NCBI GenBank assembly: GCA_964016885.1 | Contig: OZ024742.1 | Span: forward strand, 275,962,001-276,026,000 | Origin: Eledone cirrhosa | Lineage: Eukaryota | Length of the DNA: 64,000 nucleotides | Direction of reading: 5' to 3' | Part shown: positions 271 to 60,130 of the stretch, piece after piece | How the letters are laid out: every line of letters begins with the position of its first letter | Numbering within the stretch: the stretch's first letter is position 1 | The notes under the pieces: model-generated | Databases searched by the model: none | The model's input: only the letters and a program-made list of their open reading frames with translations | What the model was told of the DNA's origin: nothing | Position numbers and translations under genes: made by a program

Positions 271-2100
271 TGTAGTAAGAGTCGCCAGGCGTCTTCTGCC
301 AGCCGCGTTTGCCTGGCAATTAAAACGGTAACTACTAACTTTGCCTAATTCTTTCGTTTATTCATTGACATGTCAACTATACTGTTCTATATATATCCAT
401 GATTGTTAATTAAATATTACACACCAGTATCATCGCTAATTTGGTAACCCTGACGTGATACCAACACGCAGCCGTTCATTGTTATAAGTGGTCACCCCGA
501 AAAAAGAAAAAATAGCAGAATCTGGTGTTGTGTCAGTAACATTACGAATACACAGCAAATTTATTGACAAACTATGAAAATACTCAGTCAAAGAAACGAA
601 CACACCACGCACATGTGAAATTTTCGCACAGACAGACTTTTTCTCTCACGCATCAACTAACTGTCGCATTTCACGATATATATATATATATGTTTCTCGT
701 TTCTTACAACGAACACTTTAAAAAAAAAAAAAAAAAAAAGAAATTTGATATTTTTTTTAAAACATTTCAACAGGAACATTTATTTTCGATGAACCATTGC
801 CTTTTGTTTTCATCGTTTTCTTCATCGTTCAAGTTTTTTTTTTTTTCCAAAGTTCACACCAATAATTATGCTAAGTGAAGCCTTTCTTTTTCATCATTGT
901 CACTTTCACACTTGCACTATCATTTTCTCGCGCATTAGAAATATTATTTTTTTAAACCTAACTTAACCTTGTATTGGCACGTGTAGGCAGCACAAATTCT
1001 CGATTCACAGCGATATCTCGACTCACAGAGATAGCCGCACGCCAGAGATAACGTTTCTCGCCAAGGATTCTTCAGCCTTAAGCTATATTCACCTATTTGC
1101 CGGTTTAAAAATTTACCACGTAAATTTGCCGTTGAAAACTGCGCATTTATTCAGAATGCTTATTTCTTTGGTCGCTGGCCTCTTGACCCTTCCAGGTCAA
1201 CGCATTCTCAACATCGACCATCAACTTCGGCTGTTATTTCTAGCACTTTGCGCAACTCATTTTTTCCGAAAAAAATTTTTTTTACTGTGAATTTAAACAC
1301 CGAATACGCTCACTCAGCGAGACAACAACATCAACAGCAACACAGCTTCACCAACAACCAAAACCAACAGAACAAGCCAGAGAATTTATTTTTGCAGCAC
1401 TCTTCCTGTAAGAAAATCCATTCGGAGGTTGGAAATTTCACGATATACGACAGAACAGAAACCACCTGCATTCATTCTCTGGAACACACTTTCTTTCCTG
1501 CTGTCATGTGATTGCACACCTGTGAACTATATTTTGTACATTTGAACTTTGAGCTCTTCTCTTACTTTATTACATTGTATCTTTGGGTGATGGATAGATA
1601 GATGTCCAGTCGTTCTCTGGCCAAGAGTGGTTGGCTACCTTGATATCTATCATTGATTTTTGCAAACATTCTTTTGTCGTAATTTTCATGCCTGTTACAA
1701 CATTCTCGCCAACTTGCTACATATTTCATTCGATTTTTATATTCTAAAATTCTGGCGGGAGGTTATGTAGCAGTAGCCTCCCTTGTTGTGACTCACAACC
1801 CCAATAGATTAACAACATCTAGACGGGAAGTAGAACCCTTTCTGTAACTTCCGGCAGAGCCCTATAAAACGAATAGCTTTCGGCTCTCTCCCACTGATTT
1901 GCCCTTCCGGCGCCTGGCCTTCGCCAGGCGTCTTCTGCCAGCCGCGTTTGCCTGGCAATTAAAACGGTAACTACTAACTTTGCCTAATTCTTTCGTTTAT
2001 TCATTGACATGTCAACTATACTGTTAAATTGTTGATTAAATATTATACACACAAACCATGTCTCTTTGTTACATTCATACACACCCAGTTCATTCGCAAT
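271..2100 (+). mobile_element. Non-autonomous LTR retrotransposon (Gypsy/CsRN1-like, no coding capacity)
   Basis: Direct repeat 282-386 = 1921-2025. Both LTRs start TGTAG (271, 1766). PBS TGGTAACCCTGACGTGAT (442-459) matches the tRNA-Trp 3' end with 2 mismatches. Purine tract GGCGGGAGG at 1754-1762. TA-repeat flanks. The 5' LTR is internally deleted. Confidence 0.75.
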
Positions 2101-2156
2101 ATATACATCATGGTTGACTATACAAAATGACCAGTTCTATCCAGTGGTGAACCAAC

Positions 2157-2168
2157 AAACCTAAATGA

Positions 2169-2208
<40 letters not shown>

Positions 2209-2662
2209 GTAGTTAAGAAAGCCACAACAATGCAGAGGGAAATCTCGAGGTAGGAAGTGAATGATAGATAGGAGAAACAGGTGAAAGTGAAAATTGAGAG
2301 AGACAAAGATGAAAACAAAACAAAGGTAGAAGGGTTACCGTAGTGGAGATTTAATCCCAATATTTCGGGCTCACGCCCGAGATTTAATCCCAATATTTCG
2401 GGCTCACTGTTGATGGGCGTGAGCCCGAAATATTGGGATTAAATCTCCACTACGGTAACCCTTCTACCTTTGTTTTGTTTTCATCTTTGTCTCTCTCAAT
2501 TTTCACTTTCACCTGTTTCTCCTATCTATCATTCACTTCCTACCTCGAGATTTCCCTCTGCATTGTTGTGGCTTTCTTAACTACGTATTTTACACATTTC
2601 ACAATGCTTCAAGCAAACTTTAACACCCTCTTATATATATATATACGCATTCATTTAGGTTT
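2157..2662 (+). mobile_element. Penelope-like pseudo-LTR with an inverted partial copy (long hairpin) and a minimal hammerhead-like motif
   Basis: Arms 2205-2378 and 2415-2588 are reverse complements. CTGTTGA-T-GGGC-GTGA-GCCC-GAAA at 2407-2430. (TA)n on both sides. Confidence 0.65.
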
Positions 2663-2669
2663 ACATATA

Positions 2670-4665
2670 CAGTATATATATGAAAAATAATAATCCCCAA
2701 GTTTCAATACATTGATACATTATTTAATTGATTTACACATATGTTTCATTCAAATACAGAAGGATGTAGCATTTAATTCCTTTGTAGAGAAATCTTCAGA
2801 AGCACTAGATAATATAAAAAAAGATATTTATTTGCCGATCACATATTCTTGTGTATCCAGATTTCAAAAATGTAAACAAGTTTTATATTTTAGGGAAAGC
2901 GTTTAAAATTATGGAAGACTAGATATGTAAGAAATTTTTTTTTAACTGCATAAATTTTCTAGTGGTTACTTGGATTATCATATTTAATACTCATATTTTG
3001 ACTTTAATATATTATAGGAGTGGAGTTAGGGCTTATCAATTTAATACCATTTATTCCCTAAAGTTACAATCAAATTTAATTTTAAGTATATAGTATTCTA
3101 GTTCGTATACGTTCATTTTTTAATTATTATTTGTAGCTAAATATTCTGCTAAATCAATGTTAATACTTATTCTTATTTATTATACTATAGTATTTATGTC
3201 CTTGGGGAAAATGTTTTCCTAAAATTCCAAAGAATATCTGATATATGGGACGCTATTTGGACTCCGTATGGAGGATTAAACCATATACATTTTTTCCTTC
3301 TATTGCTTTTTCTATTATTAAATTGTCAAGAGATTTTCCAGTGGGTTAATATTACTAATATTCTTATTAAAATTATCATTTTTTCGATTAATTTTCCTAT
3401 TTCTGCTATTTTTTTTATAGTTTTATTATTTTTATTGGTATTATAATTAGGTTTAGATATACATTTATGTGTAAAAATCTTATTATTAGTTCATTTAGTT
3501 GTAGGGTTGAATCATATTTTATTGTTATAGCCTGACCTAGCAAGAGTTTCATTATAATATATAGCATTTGGGGTGAAAATATCTTTATTGGCTGAAAGTC
3601 TCGAGATTCTACCTGATATATTATTAACGATAGATTTAATAATAGATTTAGAGTGATTTGAATTTTTATGCACATAATATAGGAATTCACCAGGTTTATG
3701 ATAGAGTGTAAAGAGTTTATGATTTAAATACTGTGTAACATCTAAGAAGTTAACAACCTTTGTATTGGTTTCTATTGTTATTGCTAGGTTAGATTTTTAA
3801 AAGAATTTATACATGCTTTTTCACTCTCTCTAAGGCAGAATTGCTGAAATGTTCAAAAGTGAAGAGCGCATCATCTCTATATACACCACCTCCCATTGTG
3901 GGTAAATTTGTTAATAAGAAATAGGCCTACAAGATCCGATATATGGGCTGTGTCACCCGAACCCATGGTAATGTTGGAGTTATTGGACGATTTTTTTTCT
4001 AGTCCTAAGATTTCCATTAAATACTATAATGTTACATCTAGCTGCTGTAATTATATCTAATGCTAGTTTGGTTAAATTAGTGTATTCTACAGCCACATAG
4101 AGTGCTTTGTTAAGGATGGTAGGTGAAATAGAAGCATAATAATTATCAATATCAAGCTGTAAGAATTTTACTTTATTCTTGTTATCTAAATTAACAAACC
4201 ACTCAATAACCTTGTTAGTATTACCCCATAGATTAAGTGCAGCTTTTTGTTTAATATCGGGAATAATTCTATCCAATATATTCTTACTTATTTTTCCTAT
4301 AATAGTCGTAACCCTTTAGGTAAATAATTCTAAAGAATTAATTCATCTTACAGATTGATATATTATAGCTAATATAAGCTTCCATAATTTTTCTTTTGTT
4401 TTTTTTTTCATAAAATACTATATACTTAAAATTAAATTTGATTATAACTTTAGGGAAAAAATGGTATTAAATTGATAAACTAGTTTACATTTTTCAAATC
4501 ATATCTGGACACACAAAAACATGAGGTCAGTAAATAAAGATCTTTTTTATATTATCTAGTGATTCTAATTATTTCTCTAAAAAGTATTAGAATGAAACAT
4601 ATAAATCAGTTAAATAATGTGTTAATGTATTGAACCTTGGTAATTATTATTTTTCATTTATATAT
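2670..4665 (-). mobile_element. Degenerate Penelope-like retroelement (RT remnant)
   Basis: ORF 3980-4276 has NLWGNTNKVIEWF and FLQLDIDNYYASIS. Downstream on the minus strand: TMGS, GGVYRDDAL, VNFLDVT, YVHKNSNH and WFNPPY motifs, with many stops and frameshifts. Confidence 0.8.
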
Positions 4666-4966
4666 CCTCTGTGATTTTGTAATACTACGATGACTGGAAA
4701 TTTACAAATTGGGTTTAACTTTGAACTATCTTTCGCCAAGCTTGATGTGGATAAAATTACATTTGTGTTTTAAATATCTGACTGCCTTATACAGTTGTAT
4801 CATTAACTCATATAATCTACCTTATATATATTTCTTTAGTATTGATGAGTACCCAATACCACAGGAAAGATTAACATTTATTTTATTAAGGCCAAGTTTG
4901 AAATTTTTTGTTCTGGGGTTTATCCTGTGTACTCCAAAGTAACAAGACATGAACCTGTCCTTAATA

Positions 4967-5356
4967 ATTGTTTCTACTTTGGGCACAAGGCCAGCAATTA
5001 CCCAGTACATTACTGGTACTTTATTTTATCGACCCCGTAAGGATGAAAGATAAAGTTAACCTCGGCGCGATTTGAATGATTTCTAATTTAGACACAAGGC
5101 CAACAAGTGAGGGAAGGGAGATGAAAATGTGTAATGTAAGGGAATGTTTGATTTAATTCCAATGCCCATTATCTATGTTGGCAGTATCGGTAGAGGGTCG
5201 GATACCATGCTTTCGAGCATAGTTACGTCCCTTTACGATCTGAGTTCAAATCCCGCCGAGGTTGACTTTGCCTTTCATCCTTACGGGGTCGATAAAATAA
5301 AGTATCAGTAATGCACTGGGTAATTGCTGGCCTTGTGCCTAAAGTAGAAACAATTA
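4967..5356. mobile_element. Two tRNA-derived SINE copies (Meta-domain type) in inverted orientation
   Basis: 4967-5076 (-) and 5178-5356 (+). Core GAGGTTGACTTTGCCTTTCATCCTTACGGGGTCGATAAAATAAAGTA and B-box-like GAGTTCAAATCCC. Same family recurs at 15466-15640, 25120-26080, 39881-39973 and 45974-46530. Confidence 0.75.
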
Positions 5357-6169
5357 TCTATGTTTTGGAGAAAAGGCTGATAAAAGCGAACAGAACAATC
5401 AAATGCATCTGTTTGTCTAAAACAAAGTTATTTTGTCAAATATTGGATTTGAAACTACATTGAAATCATTGGATAATTCTTGGAAATCACAAAGTTAACA
5501 ATAAGGGAACCACGAGAAATTCATGGATTACAGAATATGTGTTTAACATGTTTTATATGAAAAAGAGACTGATAGGCTAATGATGTGAGTGAAGAATTTA
5601 GAATGAAAGTGATGACAGATATGATAGACTGCATAGTCAACTGACTTGGGAGCCAGCATTAGCAAAAATTGGTTACAGTCTGCTCTGCTGTTATAGAAAT
5701 GTGACCAAATGAGTGGATGAGAGCTGGCAGCATAGACTGGCTATTTACGTCAGAATTAATGAATACTAGAATTTTTTTCCATACACTGACATGTATGTGT
5801 ATATGTGTGTGCGTGTGTGTCTATGCATATGCATACATTTATATTTACGAGTATATAAATATAAACGTGCAAACACAGACACACTTAGAAAAATACATAC
5901 ATTCACACAAACACACATACACTCACACACATCGTACTTTTTCACCATTCCGTTCCTTCCTTTTACACACACATTCACACAGGCAGCAAGCATAAAGAGA
6001 GAGGAGTAGTCTGACTACCTCATACCACTCCTCTCTCTTTACATCTTGTGACAGAATCACAGAAATTTATATATAGATTAACATGACATTGCATACAATA
6101 TAAAAATAACAAACTAGCTAATGTGTTATTTCACTACACACCCACACACACGTCACATCACTTCATTTT

Positions 6170-6450
6170 TTTCCTTGGCTCACCAGGGCCATGAAGGTGC
6201 CATAGTAGTGTACCACTTCCCACAATCCAGCACTATTGTGAGCTAGGACTTGGGTTGTTGCAATGTCTTTGTCAGTCCATTCCATGATGTTATCCAGTCA
6301 TTTCTTCTTCGGGCTCCTTTACCCTGAACATCTCTTTGGAGGATGGTTTTGTTTATCCATCAGATCTCACCTGACCATACCATCTCATTTTTCTTTTCTC
6401 CATAGAGGTAAGCATATCTTCATAGTTTCTCATGCTAGTAAGGGCTAGAG
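6170..6450 (-). mobile_element. RTE (BovB-like) LINE 3' fragment
   Basis: Minus-strand translation PKKK*LDNIMEWTDKDI resembles the RTE ORF2 C-terminus. Confidence 0.5.
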
Positions 6451-6619
6451 AAATCATCATGGACCAAGTCAGTAATCAATCAAACTTACTGTCTCAGATA
6501 TGCCAGGTAAAAAGCACTTTGATTACATGTTACTGCACACTATAGAATGTACTGAGTGCATTTTATCATGGCATCTGCACTAGGTATATTGTCATATCTT
6601 TTATATATATATATATATC

Positions 6620-7555
6620 TCTACCTAGCATTTGACAGGCTTACCTGCTCCATAAACTTGTGGGCTTTTAGGAAACAAAGGATAGATGCACAGCATGTGT
6701 GTGTGGTACAAGCCATGTACAGTGGTGCAGCCAGCAAAGTGAGAGTTAACATGGTATACAGTGAGGAATTCAGCATGAAGTTGGGAGTTCACCAGGGGCC
6801 TTCTATCCTCAGCCCTCTCAGGTTCATTATTGTCAATCAAGCCATAACACAGATGTTTAAGACTAGCTGCCCATATGCATACTGAATCTGGGGCAGAATT
6901 AGAGACAAAATTCTAGACTTGGGAACAAAATCTAGAATAAAAAAACCTTTAAATTAATTGGCAAATACTAAAGTTCAAATAAATAGAAAAGAAAACAGAG
7001 CCCTGATACCTTCAGGGAAGTGGCATTGCTGAGTATGCAGAAAACGAGTAGGTAGAAAAATTCTCGTCTATGTACCAAATATAAATTATGAGTACATGAC
7101 ATGTAATAGGAACTCACAGGTGAGCAAAAATTGCAAGATTTGTATGTAGCTAATGACAGGAGCAGTAAACAACAAAAGGCTCACATGAAACAAGCTCTAT
7201 CCAATGCTCAGGTGGTTCCCTAAAAGTAATTGACAGCTTCTGTTACTTGGGCAACCAATATAGCAGTATAGGTAGGTGTTCAGAAATTATAGTAGCCATA
7301 GTGAGAACCATATAGAAAACGTCCAGGGAGCTACTACCACTGCTGACCACAAAGTGTTTCTTCTTCAAAATGAAAGGCAGATAATATGACACCTGTAATG
7401 AACTGCTATGCTGAATGGAAGTTTAAATTTGTGCAGAATACTTATGAAGTTTGGAAAAAAAATGAGGCAAACATGCTCTACTCAGATGGATGTGTAATAG
7501 TAATATACATGGATGATGAAAAACCAGTGAATTGAGAGAGAAACTATGCATCTGG
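6620..7555 (+). mobile_element. Degenerate RTE LINE RT fragment
   Basis: AFDR..LWAFRK..VQAMYSGAASKVRVN..SEEFSMKLGVHQG..LSPL.FII (ORF 6556-6885), followed by DSFCYLG-type motifs. Confidence 0.8.
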
Positions 7556-7859
7556 AAATATGTTAGATAGAAAACAAATATGTAATGTGAAAGATTATTT
7601 TTATAAAAAATATCACAATGGTAAATTATCTCACCAATGAAGATATATTTGTGGTTATATAAAAGATAGTTTTAGAAGGTTATTATCAAACATTGTAATA
7701 TCTTCTTTTTTATAGGATGACTTTTGACATTGATATGTATTAATATTGATCTGTATTAATATAAAAATGTGTATTAAGAGACACTTTTTACAGAATGATT
7801 TACCACAGATATCAAAAACCTTGGAACAATGATGATGATGATGAAAGTGACATCACTAT

Positions 7860-9120
7860 TTCTAGAGAATGATTTACTACAGATACCACAGTGTTATGGC
7901 TTTTCAAAGTTCTCCCACAATATGCATGGGTGTGTGTTTAGTTAAGGCTTTATTTTCAGAGAATGATTTACCGCAGATATCACATTGATATGGCTTTTCG
8001 CCTGTATGAATATGTTTATGTATAATTAAGCTACTATTTCGAGAAAATGATTTACTACAGACATCACAAGGATATGTTTTTTCTCCTGCGTGAATATATT
8101 TATGTGCTGTTAAGTCACTACTTTGAGAAAATGATTTACCGCATGTGTCACAGTGAAACGGCTTCTCTCCTGTATGAGTACGTATGTGAATTGTTAAGGG
8201 AGTTTTATCCGAGAATGATTTACCACAAATGATACAGTGATATGGCTTCTCACCTGTGTAAATGTGTTTATGCCTAGTTAAGACATTTGTATGAGAGAAT
8301 GATTGACCACAGATATCACAAAGATACAATTTATCTTTTGTATGAACAAGTTTGTGTTTAGTTAAGTCACCATTTTGAGAAAATGATTTGCCACAGATAT
8401 GGTTTGTCTCCTGTATGAATACGTCTGTGACAAGTTAAGGTTCCAGCCTGAGTAAATGATTTACCACAGATATTGCAGTGATATGGCTTCTTTCCAGTAT
8501 GAATGTTTTCATGTGCTATCAAGGAAGCTGGTTGAGCAAATGATTTACCACAGACGACACACTGATATGGCTTTTCTCCTGTATGAGTATATATGTGTCT
8601 AGTTAAGGCTCCATTTCTAGAGAATGATTTACCACAGATATCACAGCAATATGGTTTTATGCCTGTATGAATGTTTTTGTGAAATATCATGTGAGCTCTT
8701 TGAGAGAATAATTTATCACAGATGACACAGTCATATGGCTTTTCTCCTGTATGAGTATGTATGTGTAGAGTTAAGGTCCATCAGTAAAGAACGATTTACC
8801 ACAGATATCACAGCAATATAGCTTCTTTCCCGTGTGAAAATTTTCATGAGATATGAAGTTAGATTTTTGTGAGAAAGATTTACCACTAATGTCACAGTTA
8901 AATGATTTCTTCCCTGTATTGATACATTTATGTAAAGCTAACACAGTATGTTGAGAGAATGTTTGTCCACAGATATCACAATATGATTTCTTTCTTGTAT
9001 GAACATGTTTGTTTAGTTAAAGCACCATTTTGAGTGAATGATTTCTCACAGATACCACAGTGATGTGGCTTTTTCACTCTTTGGACATATTTGTGATAAG
9101 TTAAAGCACCATTTTGTGGA
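7860..9120 (-). pseudogene. C2H2 zinc-finger pseudogene, tandem paralog of the gene at 21453-23480
   Basis: ORFs 7904-8329 and 8367-8690 are separated by a frameshift and there are further disruptions upstream. The last fingers match the intact gene (HTNVLTRH, DKTPLT, QSSDL, RNSSL, ENKALTKH..IVGEL*). Flank 7557-7740 is homologous to 18648-18820. No N-terminal leader. Confidence 0.85.
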
Positions 9121-10336
9121 CACGAGTAACAAATTGTCTATCTGGGTGCCAAAAGCAAGGAATTGGCAGGAGGTTTTCCCATTGATATAGCTGCTGCTTC
9201 TTCTTATCAACCTTAGCCCTACTTTTCCACCTTCGTTTTTTTATCTTTGCCCTTTAAGCTGTATTTACCTTTCTGTTAACATTATACCTAAATTAACTGC
9301 ATGCATGCATTTGGTCATCTCCTCCACTCCCAGTTATACTGATTCATTTAAATCTACACCTGATCTTGCTTGGGTAACGGTACACTATGATATGCATATG
9401 AACTTTAAAAATCAGGCAAAGTGCAGTGGTATCCAACTATGCCCATAGGGGCCCAAGTGAATATATACCTGTTGTGTGCATGTATGTGTGTTTATGTGCA
9501 TACATATGAGTCTTTCCATATGTATCTACTTACATGCCTAAATAATATAAATGGATATGTATGTGTGTACCATATATATATATATATATATGGTACCAAA
9601 TCAAGCACTCTATGCACAGGCAGAGTGTATATAATAGGAAAAAACGAGTAAGTTTCATTTACATATAAAAGATAATTATTGTGTTACGGGTGTTTTGCAG
9701 AGGATTGGCTCAAGGTCACTCATAGGAGTTATAGACCCAACTCCACTACTGATTTGTTCCTCAGACTGGTGATATGACAAAAAAAAATATTTTTGTTGTG
9801 GTTTCTGAGATGAAAAGGTGTATATATAAGCATCAACTTTTGTTTGGGCATATGTGGGTATTGTGGTGTAATTGATGGGGCAGCTATGCAGGTGTATATT
9901 CACAGATATTCATGTGCAGGTGCATGCAAGTGTGTAAGGATTCATATGGGTGTAGGTGTGCGTGTGGGCATGTATTGGTATGTGTTTGGACATTCGAAAG
10001 ACTGGCTTTGGTATAAACAGGAAACTGAAAGGGAGAGTGACCCTATTGGCAGATGAGGGTGCCATGCTTGGACGACCTGGTACTAGTTCATAGTATCATT
10101 AATAACAATTCAAGTTTTGGGCAAAAATATATATGTAAGTGTATATGTGTGTGTATATATATGTATGTATGTGTGTCTGTGTGTATATATATATGTGTGT
10201 CTGTGTGTGCATGTATATAATTCTATGTGTATGTGTATGTATGTATAACTATACTTTTATATGCATGGGTGTACCCATGGGTAAGTCAATATAGATATAT
10301 TATGCCTATATGTGTGTATGAACGAATATAGACACC

Positions 10337-11839: not shown

Positions 11840-12950
11840 TTATCATCAAGTGCGTAACTGACAGAAATAGAATATATATGCATCCAAAAGATTCACTCAT
11901 AAATTGTTGATCACCATCCAGATGTCCCTTTATTCTTCTTTGCCACTTTTTGTTTGTCCAAGTGAAATATTTAGGAATATCAATATACAATATTGTTTTG
12001 TGCCAGTGGGTCTCTAATATTCAGTTGAAAATATTCCGTCAACTTAGTCATTGGCCGTCCCCTAGAAACAATACTTTCTTCCTGCCCTTGCTCATACACG
12101 ACCAGGTAAATGGCAAGGCTACTTTTCAACTGGCGGTTTTCGATGATGTAATGGAAATTTATAGATTCTCCAGAATGCTTCACTGGCTGAGATGTACCGT
12201 GCATTGATATAGGTCTCAATCTCATTTGGGGCATGGACACAATTTCCTTGATCATCCTTAATAGTGAAAGTGATCTTGTCTGATCCCTTTGTGATGTACT
12301 TATATAAGTACTTAACAGCCTTGACACTGTGGACAACCTCACAATTGATGTGGCAGTGATATCTGAGAGGAAAGGGTTGTATGGAACAATCCAACGATTA
12401 TCAACAGTAAATTCTTGACCTTTAAGTTGGATTGTATGAGTGTGACCACCATGCTGTCTATCCCTTCTTCTATACTCCGGAAAGGAATTTTCAGCAACAA
12501 ATGTGGTTTGTCTGAATGCCTTGGGATAACTTTTTGAGCAATGGCGTTGTTGTCCTAGCACTTCCATACATGAGCACATCATATTAGCTTGTCCACATGG
12601 GCCATGAATGTTGCAGGATGTGATGATCGTATGCAGAATTAATCTCACAGTACACTACCTGATCAATGGCATCAACAGTTTTGGGCTTGCTATCTTCAGC
12701 CATTATCAGCAGAATGAGTGAGGCCTTGTTTTCTGCCACTCTATTGTAGCAGAATGAGCCACAACTTTTCCTAGGACATTTTTTTTCAGTATGTCATCCA
12801 TGAGGCTGTCATACTTGATCTTGAAGACTCTTGCACAAATATCAGGACGGTCTCTAGGTTCTTCACCAGGGGGAAAACTATTTTTTATTTCATCCCAGTT
12901 TCTGTTAGTTGTTACCGTGATGAAATAAGATGGCTTTCCCATGTGTCAAA
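11840..12950 (-). mobile_element. Helitron Rep (HUH) domain fragment, frameshifted
   Basis: GKPSYFITVTTN..W.EI..DRPDICARVFKIK..IEWQK; HGPCG..CSKSYPK..PEYRRR..DNRWIVPYNP; HINCEVVHSVKAVKYLYKYITKG; YISASEAFWRI. Confidence 0.9.
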
Positions 12951-16900: not shown

Positions 16901-18964
16901 AAACCAAACCAAACCAAACGGAATATATTTTACTATTTTTTGGCAATATTAGGACAACATGATTCTCCCCAAATATAACAATATCTGTTTCAACACACGA
17001 TTTCATATCAAAAACCTTGCAAAACAAATACATTGCCACTAATATGTCCCTTCCCTAGGATGGACTGGGTATGTCTTATCATGTAAAGTGAGAGAGCATG
17101 TGTTAGGCTATATGTTGTTTGTTATGGAGATGTGGACATTCAACATTGAGGGAGCCAAAAATGTCTCATGGAGGTGGCCTTGATGGTGAGTTATGTTTGG
17201 CAGTATGTTATGGGATGTGTCCGGTTCTCCATGAATGGGTTAGACAGAACAGGAGCACTGGAGAAAGGTGACAGAAATACACATCATTATCATGAAATTA
17301 CAAGTTTCCATGTCTGCCTGAGTCGGATGGGATGTCATGCTTTGAAACTAGGCCAGACATGGGGCAAGGGATGCAACCTAAATGCCAATTGACACGGATG
17401 GGGGATAGAAAGATGGAAGTACTGGTTATGGGGATGACCCTGAAGCAAGTGGGTGGCATCTGACATCATGGAATCTATGTGGCTTTCCTTGCTGGAGAGG
17501 AAATGTGAGTCATGGATGTGTGAAGTCACATTCTCAAGCAGCATTGCCATTTGTACAGTGGGAGAAATCTTTTGTAGCAATGGTAGTACCTTCGTGAATT
17601 TTTTCCAGCTAGGAAGAGGGTTATGGGTTGGACAGGGAAAGTTGCACCAGAGTATGCCTGTCCTAGCTTTCCACGTTGGCATGGGTTAGGTAAAGAAGTG
17701 AAAGATGATGATATATCATCATCATTTACTGTCCTCTTTCCATACTAGCAAGCGTTGATCAGGTTGTCACCGACTAAGTCAGTGCACAAGTGGGGCTACA
17801 GATGGTCCTCTATCTCACTTACTTGCAATCCCACAATCTTTCAGGTGATCAGGGACATCTCACTTACAAAATGTTCCTATACTTAATTGAGTGCATTTTA
17901 TCATGGTGCCAACACAAGGGAGGTTGTCATGTTTTGATACAGCTGAAAAGTTCACCCAACCTTTTGTTTGGCAAATTTTCTATAGCTGGTTGCCCTTCCT
18001 CTAACCAACCACTTTACAGTGTACTGGATGCCTTTACCATGTAAATCACCAACACTAGAGATGTTGTCTTGTCTTTGACACAGCTGAAAAGTCCTCCTGA
18101 GCTTTTGTTTGGCAGTTATTGTCTCAACTGGTGAACCATCCTTATCCTATAGGAGGGGTGGAAAAAGAAGTATGTAATGAGAAGTTCTGTGACAAGAGTT
18201 ACTGAGAGAAGTGGAGGGTTTATAATAGGTGTATTATAGTGGTATGTGGGGATATCAAACTTAAATCTGATTATTGTATAATGAAATATTTTCTGTTATG
18301 GTTTGTGTACATATTTCTAACATCTGATTTATAAGAATACACTTCTAAGCTATTTATTCATAATGTAAAATATTACCATCCTTTTAAGTCTGCTTTCTCA
18401 TACTTACATGGTTTGGATGGAACTTTTCCAGTTATGTTCCTTTGTCATCTACTGTCAGATGCAGTATTTTAAAATATGCTATCATCACTTCTGCCCAGGT
18501 CTCCCTCTACTGCAGCTTCCTTCCACTCAGATCTCTTGACAGTTCTTCACCCAGTGATTACCATCTGTATCCATACCATCACAATTCTCTCTCTTATACA
18601 CTGCATCTGATTTCTTTTATACACACCCAATTAATCTATGCTTCTAAAAATATGTTAGATAGAAAACAAATATGTATTGTGAAAGAATAATTTTATTAAA
18701 AATATCACAATGGTAAATTATGTCACCAACACAGATATATTTGGTTTTATAAAAGATAGTTTTAGAAAGTTATCAAACATTGTGATATCTTTTTTTATAG
18801 AATGACTTTTAACGTTAATATAACTTGTGTAGTTAACACATTTTTTACAGAATGATTGACTACATATCAAAACCCTTCCTAAAAAGGAAAGGTGTTAAAC
18901 AATGATGATGAGGATAAGATGATGACATAGCTTCTCTCCAGTATGAACACATATGTATTTAGTT

Positions 18965-21457
18965 AAGAATTGGCGCAACTGACGGAGTGAGGTTGGTGGA
19001 GGAAAATCCTCTATAGCTTTAACGCTCTCAGGAATAGGTCAAATACCGTCAGCATCAATGACGTGGCCCCAAAAATTCAGAGATTCGGAACCAAAAACAC
19101 ATTTTGATGGATTAATCTGAACATTGTAATTCTTCAATCGAGAAAATAGAAGTTCCAGATGGCGCAAATGTTGCTCTGGAGAAGAGCTAGCAACAAGGTC
19201 AACAATATATGTGTATACAAAATCGAGGCTGCGAGTGACCTCATCCATAAATCGCTGGAAGGTGTTAGCAGCATTTCTTAACCCGAAAGGCATGGTGAGA
19301 AATTCAAAAGATCCAAATGGCGTAGTTATAGCCGTTTTCGGGATGTCGTCTTTGTTGACAGGAATCTGGTTGTAGGCTCGTATCAAATCGAGTTTCGAAA
19401 AAATGTTACAACCTTGCAACGAGGATGCAAAATCCTGCAGATGAGGGATAGGATACCGATCTGATACGGTCATCGAGTTCAATCGTCTATAATCCCCTGT
19501 GGGTCTCAAATTGCCAGAAGATTTTGGCACCATATGTAATGGAGATGCCCACAGGCTCGTGGAAGGACGAATAATTCCGAGCTGTAGCATATGATCGAAC
19601 TCGGACCGTGCTGCTTTCAGTTTGTCCGCTGGCAATCGACGGGGAGGCGAAAAAACCGGAGTGCCAGTAGTAGTAATGAAATGCTCCGTGGCGTGGTTCG
19701 GATCAGTGACTCTAAAATTTCCATGAGTCAGTTGCGGGAACGATTTCAACAATCCATGATATGGGTTTCCGGAGTTAGCAATGAAGAATGTCGGGCTAAC
19801 TGTAGAAACTTCTGCTGTCCTGCCACAAAGAGAAAAACCAGTAATATCGTCGACTAGGTGTTGGTGACGGACGTCCACCGTCAAAGAAAAATGGTGCAGG
19901 AAGTCCGCGCCCAAAATCAGGTATGGCAGGTTGGCAACAGTGAAAACCCATTTGAAATCCCGACGAAGTTTTCGAAACTGAAGAGGAAGCGAGATCTGTC
20001 CAAAAGGTTCAGATTGGTGACTGGTTGACAGCTTGCAATTCAATCGACGACTCGGGAGGAGTTACTGTCATACAATTAACAGGCCAAATACTGCACAAAG
20101 CTCCTGTGTCTACGAGGAAGGCTCTTCCAGGCAGGAGGTCCTCTATGAAGAAATGGCGGTTCTGTTGTGTCTCGCAGAGTTCACTTGCCGCCTTTAATGA
20201 CTCTGATCTGCATTTCCCGAAGCTGAATATTTACATGGGAGGCCGGCAATGTTTTGCCTTATCCACGAAGGTGGCATGATACCAGCAAAATAATGGATTG
20301 CTGGCGGGCGAAGTAGTATGCTGACGTGGAGTCGCAAAAGAACACAAACGACTCCTAGACCGCCGGGAATACAGCCTATTCTCTCTGCATAAACGAGTGA
20401 TTTGCTGCGTCAAAGCGTCAATAGCTTTTAACATGGCATCCTCGCGTGTCGAGACGGGCTGGTTCGAAATTGAAGAAGAAGCAAGTAAATTAGGACCACT
20501 CATTGTCAATCTATATCAACTTGGACGTACAAAAATAAGTGATATTCGCGTAAAAAGAATGCAGAAATTTCTTTAGTTGTTCAGAACAACGGGAAAACAG
20601 CACAAATTTCCCTCAACATCCATAAAGGCAGGAGACCAGAAAAAAAAAAATTGTTCTCAAGTGTCCATAACAGGGAAAATAATCCGGCGAATTTGTAACA
20701 TCATGGCAGAAACTCTCAAAAAAATATATATCGACAGCATCTCACGCTGCTCAGTTAAGGTTGGGAAAAGACAGCATCACGTGATGCGTTTCGGAGCAGA
20801 AAGACAATTGGCAGGAAAATTATTGGCCATTACAAAAAATAAGAATTCTTTTTAACTTTTGGTTTGTCTGCTTAAAAAAAAAATGTTCAAAAATGTTGGT
20901 AATCATTTTTTCTTTGTTTTTTTTATATATTCACTGCCCAGAGAATAGCATAATAGAAGATATGTGTTTCGCTTATAAATGTTCAACCACATGTATTATC
21001 AGAAGGTTGCCATTTTATAGTTCGATGTTCGGGGTTAACCACTTTAGGAGAGATGGTCACCATTTTAGAAGGCTGCGTTGTTTTACGGTTTAGAGGGGAT
21101 TTCGATTCCCTAGCTTGGCTGCTCGACATCTCTTCTATTTGTTGTTAGGTGTAGGTAAACAATTAAGCAAAAAGAACATACCTCAAGCTTATATGTACAT
21201 GAGCATTTTAATCAGAGCAATAAACAAAACAGGTTATCATATCAGTTACTCCTTGATTGGTAATTCGTAATTATCATTAAGTGGCAGTGTTCAAACATCC
21301 TGTGACCACATGGTGCAATATCGCTGTTTCGCCACAGTGAAACGCGTCTGGTCACCTCAAGAGACAAAGTCGAAGAGTGTGTATTCAGCTATGTTAGAAC
21401 TAATGGCAGTTAATCGACTGCCTCCAAAGTCAAAGCTAGGTGGCGTGATCTTCTACA
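18965..21457 (-). mobile_element. Truncated CsRN1-type Gypsy element (5' LTR, deleted gag, protease, RT)
   Basis: LTR about 21043-21457 begins TGTAGAAGATCACGCC. PBS-like TGGTTAACCCCGA. Gag CHCC motif CWYH..C. Protease DTGA. RT ORF 19039-20043 ([29 protein letters not shown]). Ends abruptly before RNase H. Confidence 0.92.
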
Positions 21458-23480
21458 GTTCTCCTACAATATGCATTTGGTTGTGTTTAGTGAAGGCTTT
21501 ATTTTCAGAGAAAGTTTTACCACAGATATCACAGTGATATGGCTTTTCACCTGTATGAGTACATTTATGTATCATTAAAGTACTATTTCGAGAAAAAGAT
21601 TTACTACAGATATCACAGGGATATGGCTTGTCTCCTGTATGAATATATTTGTGGGTTATTAATTCACTACTTTGAGAAAACGATTTACCACATATGTCAC
21701 AGTGAAATGGCTTCTCTCCTGTATGAGTACGTATGTGATTTGTTAAGGGGGTTTTATCAGAGAATGCTTTACCACAAATGACACAGTGATATGGCTTCTC
21801 ACCTGTATGAATGCGTTTATGTCTAGTTAAGGCATTTGTATGAGAGAATGATTTACCACAGATATCACAAAGATACAACTTATCTTTTGTATGAACACGT
21901 TTGTGTTTACTTAAGTCACCATTTTGAGAGAATGATTTGCCACAGATGTCACAGTGATATGGTTTCTCTCCTGTATGAATACGTTTGTGACTAGTTACAG
22001 TTCCAGACTGAGAAAATGATTTACCACAGATATCGCAGCGATATGGTTTCTCTCCTGTATGAATACGTTTGTGTACAGTTAACATAGCATTTTGAAAGAA
22101 TGACTTACCACATATGTCACAGTAATATGGCTTCTCTCCTGTATGGATGCTTTTGTGTATAGTTAACATAACATTTTGAGAGAATGATTTCCCACAGATA
22201 TCACAGTGATATGGCCTGTCTCTCATATGAATATTTTCATGAGCTACCAAGTTTGATCTCTGGGAAAAAGATTTAGCACAGATGTTGCAATGATAAGGCT
22301 TCTCCCCCGAATGAATACGTTTATGTATAGCTAACACATCATTTCGGGAGAATGATTTACCACAAATATCACAGTGATATGGCTTCTCTCCTGTGTGAAC
22401 GCCTTTGTGTTTAGTTAACCCACCTCTTCCAGAAAACGTTTTACCACAAATACCACAGTGATATGGTTTTTCTCCTTTATGAATACATTTGTGTTTAATT
22501 AACCAAATTCCTTTACAGAATGATTTACCACAGATATCACAATGATAGAGTTTCCTTTCTGTATGAATGCGTTTGTGCGTAGCTAATCTACATCTTACAG
22601 AGAATGATTTACCACAGATGTCACAATGATATTGCTTTTCTCCTGTATGAAGGAGTTTGTGATTATTGAAGCTACTTCTGAACGAGAATGATTTACCACA
22701 GATATCACAATGATATGGCTTCTCCCCTGTATGAATACGTATGTGATTAGTTAAGTTATTACTTTTAGAGAACAATTTACCACAGATATCACAGTGATAA
22801 GGTTTTTCTCCTGTATGAATACTTTTGTGTTTGGTTAAGTCATCACTCTGATAAACAGATATACCACAGATATCGCATTGAAATGGCTTTACACCTGTAT
22901 GTAGCTGTTTGTGTTTCTTTAAGACTGCATTCCGAGAAAATGATTTACCACAGATATCACAGTAATATGGTTTTATGCCTGTATGAATGCTTTTGTGAAA
23001 TGTCAAGTGAGATTTTTGGGAGAATGATTTACCACAGATATCACAGTGATATGGCGTCTCACCTGTATGAGTACGTTTGTGTTCAATTAACTTTCCATTT
23101 GCAGAAAATGATTTACCACAGATATCACAGTGATATGGCTTCTCACCTGTATGAGTACGTATGTGTATAGTTAAGCTTATATTTGCAGAAAATGTTTTAC
23201 CACAGATTTTACAGTGATATGGCTTCTTTCTTTTATGGGCAAATTTGTGTTTAGTTAAACGAGCATCTTCAGAGAATGATTTACCACAGATATTACAATG
23301 GTACGGCTTTTCTCCTGTATGTTCATGAGAATTCAGTTTATATTTTTTGGACAATAATTTACCAGTGATATCACAATGGTATGATGTTTTTACTATTTCA
23401 TTCAGTACCTCACTCGGAGAATCATTTCTTTCAGACTCCGATTTAATCTTAATCTGTTTCTCCCATAATTCATTTTCCAT
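21453..23480 (-). CDS. C2H2 zinc-finger protein, 675 aa, 22 intact fingers plus 1 degenerate finger, short N-terminal leader
   Basis: Uninterrupted ORF with 28-aa CxxC..H...H repeats and TGEKP linkers. Splice acceptor TTTCAG (23565-23570) lies about 85 nt upstream of the ATG. The stop codon lies inside the LTR. Confidence 0.93.
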
Positions 23481-24840
23481 AATATATCCTTTTTATATCT
23501 ATTCTGTAGATGTTAAATATAGATGACACATCTGATGTAAGGAATTCTTTAATGCCAATGTCGTCTGAAATAATAAAAAATTCTATAAGATATATAGAAT
23601 ATTTGAAATGTACAGATTCAACAATGGAAAGTTTACTACATTTCTATATTAATAAACTAAAAGTATAAACATTGACCTGAAGAATCAATGATTACTTTTA
23701 TTGAAAGAAGCAGCATCACTGGAGCTTTAGGAGATAAATTATTTTTTTTCTTTAGGAAATGCAACATTCCTTTTTCTGTTAATGAGATACCATATTTAAT
23801 TATATCACCCCCACTATTTACCTTTTTCTGTGTTTGTGAGGTGAACTGCTTAACAAGACAGTCATACCTGCTCCTATATATTATTTATTCATGATCAGGT
23901 TCATTACCAGACTTTATTTTCTTTCAAAACTTGCTTGAATCTACTTGAAAACATTCTGGTTTCATAACATCGACCCACCTGAAATTACCTATTCATATTT
24001 AAATGAGAACACCAACGCAAACTTAATAACAGCAGTGACTGAGATAAGAAAAGTAATATTTACTAAGAAGAATAGAGAGAAATTGTGGAAGAAAATGCTC
24101 TTAAAATTTTTTCTGAAGTATCAGGATTTCATCACAATCTTTCAAATGATAGGATGGCATGGTTTAGAAAAGTCAGATAAATTTCAAACAATATGTGTCA
24201 AACAAGCCCATTAAGTGAATCATGTACTGAACATTGCTGCAGATTTATTTTTTTATACAGGGATGAGAGACTGTTCCAGGTTAGTATGGCCTAGGGTTTA
24301 ATGTAGTCTGAAAATTATCACTTCCATACCATTACCAAAGATATATGTTTCAAATCATCTCTTTTTATACAACAAATAAAATACATGGTAGATTAACAGT
24401 AATATTTCTGTAAAAGAGAAAACAAATTGTACGCTGTGATGGACTAATCCCAAAACAAACTCTTCTTTTGGCCACTATAAAATACCCTGTTCAAAGCACG
24501 TCAAAAAGAACACGAAAAATCAATTTCAACTCAAGCTCCAACGTCAGACGGATATAAGTGTAAAAATATACCAAAATACTAATAAATTTTAAAAAGTTAT
24601 GATCATTATGTGGGATAATTGTCCCGTAATTCCCCCTTTTTTGTTTTTCCTTCATTCACTTCATCGTCGTTTAATTCCGCTTTCCTTGCTTGCAACGGTT
24701 CGACTGGTAATTACAATTTAATCAAAACATCCGGTAAAGCTTATCCGTTGATTTTACTTTCACTTTATAGGAATCTCCCCTCAATGATACCCCCAAAGAA
24801 AATACGAGTGAATAAAGAGAATAACTATAAGATAAAATAC

Positions 24841-35163: not shown

Positions 35164-60130
<24,967 letters not shown>

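What the first reader, a model, noticed from the sequence alone, without database searches (positions are those of the whole stretch)
21043..21480. Gypsy LTR inserted inside the last codon of a ZNF gene rebuilds the same Leu and stop and replaces the 3' UTR
Seen: the ZNF ends GGA GAA C|TG TAG, and TGTAG is the first 5 nt of the LTR (same start as the LTRs at 54431 and 49209). The paralog without the insertion ends GGA GAA CTT TGA (7904-7915), also IVGEL*. The paralog-like 3' flank is displaced to about 18648-18965. The LTR carries ATTAAA on the minus strand (21207-21212). Inference: the insertion left the protein unchanged but swapped the 3' UTR and poly(A) site for sense LTR sequence. This could link a putative TE-binding ZNF to the silencing of that TE family (for example by piRNAs).
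Basis: partly seen in the sequence, partly recalled or inferred. Interest (0 to 1): 0.75.

Follow-up and report, generated by a model that had tools for sequence, protein, structure and literature searches.

The report
Retrotransposon supplies zinc-finger gene's stop codon
A jumping gene sits in the very last codon of a zinc-finger gene and its first letters spell the same amino acid and a stop, so the protein ends as its sister genes do; this is likely a lucky insertion that survived, and it probably does not help silence the jumping gene.

Summary
Observation confirmed. A 675-aa, 22-finger C2H2 gene ends GGA GAA C|TG TAG, and TGTAG starts a 415-bp sense LTR of a CsRn1-clade Gypsy element. 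All 11 empty paralogs of this type stop at the same place (9 of 11 CTT TGA), so the protein was not truncated. The rebuild needs no special mechanism: the LTR ends (TGTAG, TTTAG) always give one residue and a stop in that phase. No GAAC or zinc-finger targeting was found, and only about 20 of 2027 coding positions spare all fingers.

The old 3' UTR and its conserved AATAAA survive 2.5 kb downstream, behind a deletion of the element's 3' half. An unlabelled, probably RNA, run holds a contig identical across that deletion junction, so the UTR may be lengthened rather than swapped. The LTR's ATTAAA is conserved but aligns with a TATA-like box in the sister family. A sense insert is the wrong orientation to make silencing piRNAs. 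Expression of the zinc-finger gene itself is not shown. The scan earlier noted an LTR-supplied stop in a zinc-finger gene on other DNA. A neat, rare, but ordinary-kind event.

The parts
21453..23480 (-). C2H2 zinc-finger ORF, 675 aa, 22 intact fingers; only C2H2-type repeats, no KRAB, SCAN or BTB among the 25 Pfam rows shown; last 5 nt (TG TAG) come from the LTR
23563..23570 (-). Likely splice acceptor (TTTCAG|A) opening the exon that holds the whole ORF; conserved in 4 of 4 paralogs aligned; upstream exon not located
   Evidence: sequence conservation; splicing inferred
21453..21458 (-). Hybrid last codon and stop: C from the host, TG TAG from the LTR (the T can be read as host or LTR)
21458..21461 (-). 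Left target-site 4-mer GAAC (right copy lost, so the duplication cannot be seen at this locus)
   Evidence: 4-bp duplications in other copies
21043..21457 (-). 5' LTR, 415 bp, TGTAG...CTAAA, sense to the ZNF; family has 408 first-look candidates in the genome, nearest copy about 95% identical
21207..21212 (-). ATTAAA, 241 nt after the stop; conserved in 28 of 29 aligned copies; aligns with TATAAA of the sister LTR family; candidate poly(A) signal and/or TATA box
21176..21184 (-). GAG|GTATGT, conserved in both LTR families; G/T-rich downstream element and/or splice-donor-like motif (untested)
21030..21041 (-). Primer-binding site, variant of the tRNA-Trp type (TGGTTAACCCCG; other copies TGGTGACCCCG)
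   Evidence: PMC2582038 section 6
18966..21029 (-). Leader, short gag, protease and reverse-transcriptase part of the element; broken by frameshifts near 20239 and 20007, a 3-bp loss near 19199 and truncation at 18966
   Evidence: RVT_1 E 7e-29
18964..18967 (-). Deletion junction with TT microhomology; removed about 2.5 kb of element (rest of pol, 3' LTR) and about 43 bp of host UTR with the old TGA; single copy in the genome
   Evidence: bridged with 0 differences by run X2
18197..18965 (-). Original 3' flank/UTR, 83-86% identical to that of intact paralogs
18692..18697 (-). Original AATAAA, kept in 3 of the 4 paralogs whose UTR aligns there (TATAAA in the window paralog)
7904..9116 (-). Broken paralog without the insertion, ends GGA GAA CTT TGA

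Best explanation
A CsRn1-clade Gypsy element sits in sense in the last codon of one zinc-finger paralog and supplies its stop, and it likely got there by untargeted integration and survived because the protein stayed the same. Shown: the junction, the ancestral CTT TGA end in paralogs, the family's termini and random 4-bp targets, the later loss of the element's 3' half with about 43 bp of host UTR, and the intact 22-finger ORF. Inferred: integration after the C of GAAC; either LTR end would give one residue plus TAG in this phase (CTG or CTT, both Leu), and almost every other coding position would have cut fingers and been removed by selection or left a pseudogene. Inferred: the gene likely still works, with a changed last exon that would end either at the LTR's ATTAAA box (UTR about 270 nt, close to the ancestral length) or, on read-through, at the old AATAAA 2.8 kb after the stop. 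The LTR may also start its own RNA that uses the host poly(A) signal. No anti-TE role is needed.
For: Empty paralogs: 11 of 11 MHIVG-type ends among 29 loci examined stop at the same position, 9 CTT TGA, 1 CAT TGA, 1 ATT TGA, so the last Leu is not even strictly required. No targeting: GAAC at 0 of 39 independent target sites outside the window (1 GTTC); C2H2 motifs within 1.5 kb at 0 of 47 other parsed LTR loci (7 of 55 not parsed); PMC2582038 section 6 also reports no target preference for the clade. Built-in stop: sense end TGTAG and antisense end TTTAG both give 1 residue then TAG in phase 1; 20 (sense) and 19 (antisense) of 2027 coding positions keep all fingers, 1 each gives the identical protein. 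Continued constraint: the element differs from three agreeing copies at 50 of 1731 sites and has 7 frameshift-size indels in 2.5 kb, while the 2025-nt ORF has none and keeps all zinc ligands of 22 fingers; P(intact) under neutrality 0.0001, 0.01 or 0.05 if all, half or a third of that divergence arose after insertion. Read-through or LTR-started RNA: run X2 holds 18807-20196 with 0 differences.
Against: Under uniform integration an exact rebuild is rare: my rough estimate is 0.001-0.02 per genome (about 6000 suitable sites in 3 Gb; 500-10000 insertions; assumed numbers), so luck plus a very large scan is being invoked. The right target-site copy is deleted, so the integration point is inferred. 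No listed contig bridges the ZNF-LTR junction (table cut). The kind of run X2 is not on record. Its pieces at the ZNF 5' end differ from the window (7 of 146 letters), so expression of this ZNF is not shown. Private changes in the last 150 codons (4 silent, 6 replacement) look more like those of the broken paralogs (4/8, 8/10) than of the two intact ones (4/0, 3/2), on small numbers. Part of the element's divergence may predate insertion, and gene conversion between paralogs could keep an ORF open.
Confidence: 0.65

Rival explanations
1. The insertion silenced or destabilised the gene (heterochromatin on the LTR, or decay of an mRNA with a 2.8-kb or spliced 3' UTR) and it is a young pseudogene whose ORF has not yet broken.
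For: No piece identical to this ZNF's coding region is listed in the probable RNA run, while the element's interior is. Private replacement changes are 6 against 0-2 in intact paralogs. Two close neighbours are already frameshifted. A donor-like GAG|GTATGT lies about 270 nt after the stop.
Against: ORF and all zinc ligands intact although about 3-9 disabling hits were expected; contigs fragment in finger arrays, so absence from a cut table is no evidence.
Confidence: 0.15
2. Co-opted sensor: the sense Gypsy sequence makes the ZNF mRNA a target of the family's antisense piRNAs, so ZNF output would rise when piRNA control of the family lapses.
For: Geometry fits a target (sense, 0.4-2.5 kb of family sequence). 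Ping-pong signatures on protein-coding mRNAs occur in molluscs (PMC6128900, passages). ZNF repertoires of several animals, octopus among those tested, are predicted to prefer TE sequence (PMC10547256, passages).
Against: No small-RNA data here; no evidence that this ZNF binds this family; the LTR is no better conserved than the broken interior (3.4% against 2.8% divergence); any sense insertion has this geometry.
Confidence: 0.08
3. One reading: the LTR-derived UTR is a source of piRNAs that silence the TE family.
For: TE insertions in host 3' UTRs can trigger piRNA immunity (PMC13226689, passages and section 12).
Against: That route needed the antisense orientation; the sense construct did not silence (same section). 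This insert is sense.
Confidence: 0.04
4. The element integrated further down the UTR and a second deletion or recombination brought the LTR's first base against GAAC; or the junction is an assembly error.
For: The right target-site copy is missing; the locus has had one deletion already; the sister element 28 kb away also has GAAC next to TGTAG; the left junction is not bridged by any listed contig.
Against: The LTR is complete to its first base, which a random deletion would rarely respect; its first 40 bp match its own family at 99%; host sequence is colinear on both sides; the right junction is single-copy and bridged in run X2.
Confidence: 0.06
5. The family targets GAAC sites or zinc-finger gene ends as safe harbours.
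For: Both elements in the window sit at GAAC.
Against: 0 of 39 other independent sites are GAAC and 0 of 47 other parsed loci are near fingers.
Confidence: 0.02

Closest known systems
CsRn1 clade of Ty3/Gypsy LTR retrotransposons (CsRn1, PwRn1, AgCR; PMC2582038, section 6 read in full and passages)
   Same: TGT...AAA termini, tRNA-Trp PBS, 4-bp target duplication without preference, CX2HX9CX3C Gag motif in sister copies, PR-RT-RH-IN order with GPY motif, about 5.1-5.6 kb
   Different: This copy is 3'-truncated and frameshifted; no phylogeny against named members was run
Sense LTR insertions that end host transcripts (TE-derived termination sites in human genes; PMC3517506, passages)
   Same: Sense LTR directly behind a coding sequence with a candidate poly(A) box
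   Different: Here the LTR also gives the last codon and stop; termination is not shown; the host signal survives downstream
ERV internal regions in extended 3' UTRs and last exons of human genes, e.g. ERV3-1 in ZNF117, TMEM161B (bioRxiv 10.64898/2026.04.29.721355, passages)
   Same: Retroelement gag/pol sequence embedded in or right behind a terminal exon, also in a zinc-finger gene
   Different: Invertebrate Gypsy element; exact rebuilding of the host C-terminus
Tirant insertions in host 3' UTRs that trigger piRNA immunity (PMC13226689, passages and section 12)
   Same: LTR element inside a host 3' UTR
   Different: Those are antisense and silence; a sense fragment did not; this one is sense
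Expanded C2H2 zinc-finger clusters of coleoid cephalopods (PMC12513265, PMC10547256, passages)
   Same: Tandem clusters of long finger arrays with frequent duplication and pseudogenes in a ~3 Gb, 36% GC genome
Prophages that rebuild the 3' end of the gene they enter (e14 and phage 21 in icd; recalled, no call)
   Same: A mobile element supplies the host gene's last codons
   Different: Those are site-specific and carry a copy of the gene end; here the element is untargeted and the match is 5 nt

Membership tests
CsRn1-clade Ty3/Gypsy | LTR termini TGT...AAA or TGT...ATA | tested here: met
   TGTAG...CTAAA in this copy and the family
CsRn1-clade Ty3/Gypsy | PBS complementary to tRNA-Trp (TGGTGAG/CCCCGT/A) | tested here: met
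   TGGTGACCCCGACGTG in L007 and L018; variant TGGTTAACCCCG in this copy; compared with the paper's motif, not with this genome's tRNA
CsRn1-clade Ty3/Gypsy | 4-bp target-site duplication without preference | tested here: met
   4-bp duplications at solo LTRs and full elements, varied sequence; not visible at this locus because the right end is deleted
CsRn1-clade Ty3/Gypsy | Gag CHCC motif CX2HX9CX3C | tested here: met
   Present in 3 of 4 other copies examined; in this copy a frameshift falls inside the motif
CsRn1-clade Ty3/Gypsy | PR-RT-RH-IN order with GPY/F motif | tested here: met
   PR, RT and GPY motifs in order in sister copies; this copy holds PR and part of RT
CsRn1-clade Ty3/Gypsy | Groups with CsRn1 in an RT tree | not tested
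   No named reference sequences were fetched
LTR-derived transcription termination site | LTR in sense behind or in the gene, with a poly(A) hexamer and G/T-rich downstream element | tested here: met
   ATTAAA at 21207-21212, then CA and GTATGTTCTTTTT
LTR-derived transcription termination site | Host transcripts actually end in the LTR | tested here: inconclusive
   Only contigs were laid; they cannot show ends; one probable RNA run covers sequence beyond the LTR
Genic piRNA source silencing a TE | TE fragment antisense within the host transcript | tested here: not met
   Gene and element are both on the minus strand
Genic piRNA source silencing a TE | piRNAs map to the insert and silence in trans | not testable with these tools
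   No small-RNA run among the 23 runs listed
TE-repressing zinc-finger protein | Tandem C2H2 array | tested here: met
   22 fingers
TE-repressing zinc-finger protein | Repressor domain such as KRAB or FiNZ | tested here: inconclusive
   None among the 25 of 28 Pfam rows shown; the 58-aa N-terminus found no relative at E <= 0.001
TE-repressing zinc-finger protein | Binds the TE | not testable with these tools
   Needs ChIP or binding assays
Site-specific safe-harbour element | Recurrent insertion at one motif or gene class | tested here: not met
   0 of 39 other sites GAAC; 0 of 47 other parsed loci near fingers

The most novel reading that the evidence does not exclude
A transposon-sensing circuit: the zinc-finger mRNA carries up to 2.5 kb of sense Gypsy sequence, is cut by the family's antisense piRNAs, and is released to make a repressor of that same family when piRNA control fails; the TAG built into both LTR ends is what let the element be wired in without touching the protein.
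Probability: 0.05. Interest if true: 0.8.

Novelty: new member of a known kind. Interest (0 to 1): 0.3.

Why it matters
It is a clean natural example of a retrotransposon end supplying a host gene's last codon and stop, with many empty paralogs as controls. It shows that CsRn1-type LTR ends (TGTAG and TTTAG) end any reading frame they enter in one phase, in either orientation. The locus offers a tidy test of competition between an LTR poly(A) box and the displaced host signal. If the sensor reading were true it would link zinc-finger and piRNA defence in an invertebrate, which is an open question, but nothing here shows it. Four full-text searches listed no report of an exact LTR rebuild of a last codon; only titles and abstract starts of those lists were seen, and the library lacks most subscription papers.

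Tried and rejected
Protein homologue searches gave no orthologue: the C-terminal region returned generic C2H2 proteins at no more than 60% identity among the 120 listed; the N-terminal 58 aa returned nothing at E <= 0.001. The run search listed 23 runs, none holding half the words and none on record as RNA of this organism; shares of 0.06-0.19 were not used as evidence. Runs X5 and X15 (other organisms, RNA guessed) had no cover on the LTR and little on the flank; this is not evidence of an empty site. Run X1's piece 18692-18994 has only 29 letters beyond the deletion junction, below the 31 needed, so it is not counted as a bridge. No second laying was obtained, so whether X2 is RNA, and whether the three RAD runs of other individuals carry an empty allele, stays open. 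An early idea that this copy had a private gag deletion was dropped: a full-length family copy has the same short gag. A GAAC target preference was tested and rejected. The 5'-LTR labels printed for the first family were mis-parsed on an internal CTAAA/TGGT motif and were not used; target 4-mers for that family were read, and L071-L072 (partial) were left out. dN/dS over the last 150 codons (0.16 and 0.34 against the two intact paralogs) does not separate the time after insertion. No binding-motif prediction was attempted. The look-up of earlier notes by place gave nothing. No supplements were read; Additional file 1 of PMC2582038 lists LTR termini and might show TGTAG in named members.
Full report
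Setting. The window lies in a 3.0-Gb animal genome, G000:C3:275962001-276026000, at about 36% GC. The long clustered C2H2 arrays resemble those of coleoid cephalopods; that is a recalled resemblance, as no call names the organism.

The observation. The minus-strand ORF 23480-21453 encodes 675 aa with 22 complete C2H2 fingers and ends MHIVGEL. Its last bases are GGA GAA CTG TAG. A genome search with the next 419 bases found 408 candidates and scored 40. In the 30 loci fetched, the shared sequence begins at TGTAG (or a one-letter variant) and ends at CTAAA, with unrelated flanks. So the LTR is 21457-21043, and TG TAG of the gene is its first five bases. A PBS follows, so it is a 5' LTR in the same direction as the gene. 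The two LTRs near 49-54 kb belong to a sister family and share only the first ~69 bp.

The ancestral end. A motif search found three empty paralogs, neighbouring stretches gave three more, and a search with the old 3' flank gave 29 loci. Eleven of these 29 show an MHIVG-type end, and all 11 stop at the same position: 9 with CTT TGA, one CAT TGA, one ATT TGA. None continues with further fingers. The insertion therefore did not truncate the protein, and the last Leu is not strictly required in the family.

What happened on the far side. The element runs from 21457 to 18966 and stops inside reverse transcriptase. Host sequence resumes about 43 bp after the insertion point, with TT shared at the junction. 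One deletion thus removed about 2.5 kb of the element, the right target-site copy and the old TGA. The junction is single-copy. Beyond it the old flank is 83-86% identical to intact paralogs down to about 18197 and keeps AATAAA at 18697-18692, present in 3 of the 4 paralogs that align there.

The element. TGT...AAA termini, a tRNA-Trp-type PBS, unselective 4-bp duplications and the CX2HX9CX3C Gag motif (3 of 4 other copies) match the CsRn1 clade as described in PMC2582038 (section 6 read in full; passages). No tree was built. This copy is broken by two frameshifts in its coding part, a 3-bp loss and the truncation.

Is the rebuild more than chance? Both LTR ends carry TAG at bases 3-5 (TGTAG, TTTAG). 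Entering after the first base of a codon, either end gives one residue and a stop; after C both give Leu. Of 2027 coding junction positions, 20 (sense) or 19 (antisense) keep all fingers and 1 each gives the identical protein. There is no targeting: GAAC is the target at 0 of 39 independent sites outside the window (26 of the first family read, 13 of the sister family; one is GTTC), and 0 of 47 other parsed LTR loci have a finger within 1.5 kb (7 of 55 not parsed). That both window elements sit at GAAC looks like coincidence. With uniform integration an exact rebuild would be rare, roughly 0.001-0.02 per genome on my assumed numbers. Given an insertion that spares the fingers it is about 1 in 20. 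A rare survivor found by a very large scan is the simplest reading.

Is the gene alive? The element differs from three agreeing copies at 50 of 1731 sites (13/381 LTR, 4/154 leader, 33/1196 coding) and has 9 private indels, 7 not multiples of three. The ZNF ORF has no break. Under neutrality the chance of that is 0.0001, 0.01 or 0.05 if all, half or a third of the divergence arose after insertion. Against this, private changes in the last 150 codons are 4 silent and 6 replacement, closer to the broken paralogs (4/8, 8/10) than to the two intact ones (4/0, 3/2), on small numbers. Expression is not shown.

The 3' end of the RNA. ATTAAA lies 241 nt after the stop, is kept in 28 of 29 aligned copies and is followed by CA and a G/T-rich stretch, so it is the LTR's best poly(A) candidate. 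This LTR has no AATAAA. But the box aligns with TATAAA in the sister family, so it may be the TATA box or serve as both, as described for some LTRs in PMC3601003 (passages). Such a hexamer occurs in 45% of shuffles. Sense LTRs are strong terminators of human genes (PMC3517506, passages), and ERV interiors also occur inside long 3' UTRs (bioRxiv 10.64898/2026.04.29.721355, passages).

One laying of contigs was obtained (4 of the 23 runs listed). Run X2 holds 18807-20196 and 20266-20529 with no difference. Its kind is not on record. It looks like RNA: 88 million letters against 1394 million for X1; only this copy's letters at 11 of 13 listed places in 19024-19969 where X1 shows other copies (at one of the 13 a second contig differs; one further place is not counted); and depth falling from 26 to 5 in the bin that holds the splice acceptor, against 175 to 113 in X1. 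If it is RNA, transcripts run past the LTR box or start in the LTR and reach the old UTR, so the swap is at most partial. X2 may come from the assembled individual. No listed piece bridges the ZNF-LTR junction, and X2's pieces at the ZNF 5' end differ from the window, so they are probably from a paralog. Contigs cannot show ends.

The piRNA idea. In Drosophila an antisense, but not a sense, Tirant fragment in a 3' UTR silenced the element (PMC13226689, section 12 read in full; passages). This insert is sense, so it is a poor source of silencing guides. It could be a target of antisense piRNAs; molluscs show ping-pong signatures on coding mRNAs (PMC6128900, passages). TE binding by non-mammalian zinc fingers is so far a prediction (PMC10547256, passages), and cephalopod C2H2 genes number over a thousand (PMC12513265, passages). 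Nothing ties this protein to this family.

Earlier notes. One unchecked note on another genome describes a Gypsy insertion giving a shark zinc-finger gene an LTR-derived stop. It shows that the kind of event recurs; I did not test it.

Verdict. Real and well controlled, but of a known kind: a sense LTR insertion tolerated at a gene's 3' end. The exact rebuild is a rare coincidence helped by the TAG in the LTR ends. Interest 0.3.

Noticed in passing
window 48853-54431 (-): Full-length sister CsRn1-type element, 356-bp LTRs differing at 7 positions, GAAC duplication on both sides, broken frames, and a repeat inserted in gag (about 53104-53435); it lies in sense between exons of a tetraspanin-like gene.
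   Followed up: partly
window 59188-58766, 45600-45130 and about 35231-35164 (-): Exons of a tetraspanin-like gene (resemblance recalled, not scanned); it ends about 12 kb upstream of the ZNF on the same strand.
   Followed up: no
window 21176-21184 (-) and the same place in the sister LTR family: GAG|GTATGT is conserved between two LTR families that are otherwise far apart; it could be a poly(A) downstream element or a splice donor, which in read-through RNA would sit 270 nt after the ZNF stop.
   Followed up: partly
window 7904-7860 and paralog ends: The family's C-terminus G-x-L-stop seems to come from an old short insertion in a TGEKPY linker; degenerate finger sequence continues in the 3' UTR of all paralogs.
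   Followed up: partly
G000:C3 about 228.2-228.4 Mb and 275.7-276.0 Mb: Two clusters of the same ZNF subfamily 47 Mb apart, with intact and frameshifted members mixed; one ORF has 34 fingers (L037/L038), and two genes in the first cluster have almost identical upstream regions.
   Followed up: partly
L002 and L003 (G000:C4): The same solo LTR with the same flanks at two places 65 Mb apart, which suggests a segmental duplication.
   Followed up: no
L004/L005 and L016/L019: Full elements of the family with LTR pairs 99.0% and 96.7% identical, so the family was active over a span of time.
   Followed up: partly
window 11980-12654 (-): 224-aa frame resembling a Helitron Rep/helicase piece (recalled resemblance).
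   Followed up: no
window 20193-20198 (-): A second ATTAAA inside the element's gag/protease region, at the place where run X2's identical contig begins or ends (20196); may be chance.
   Followed up: no
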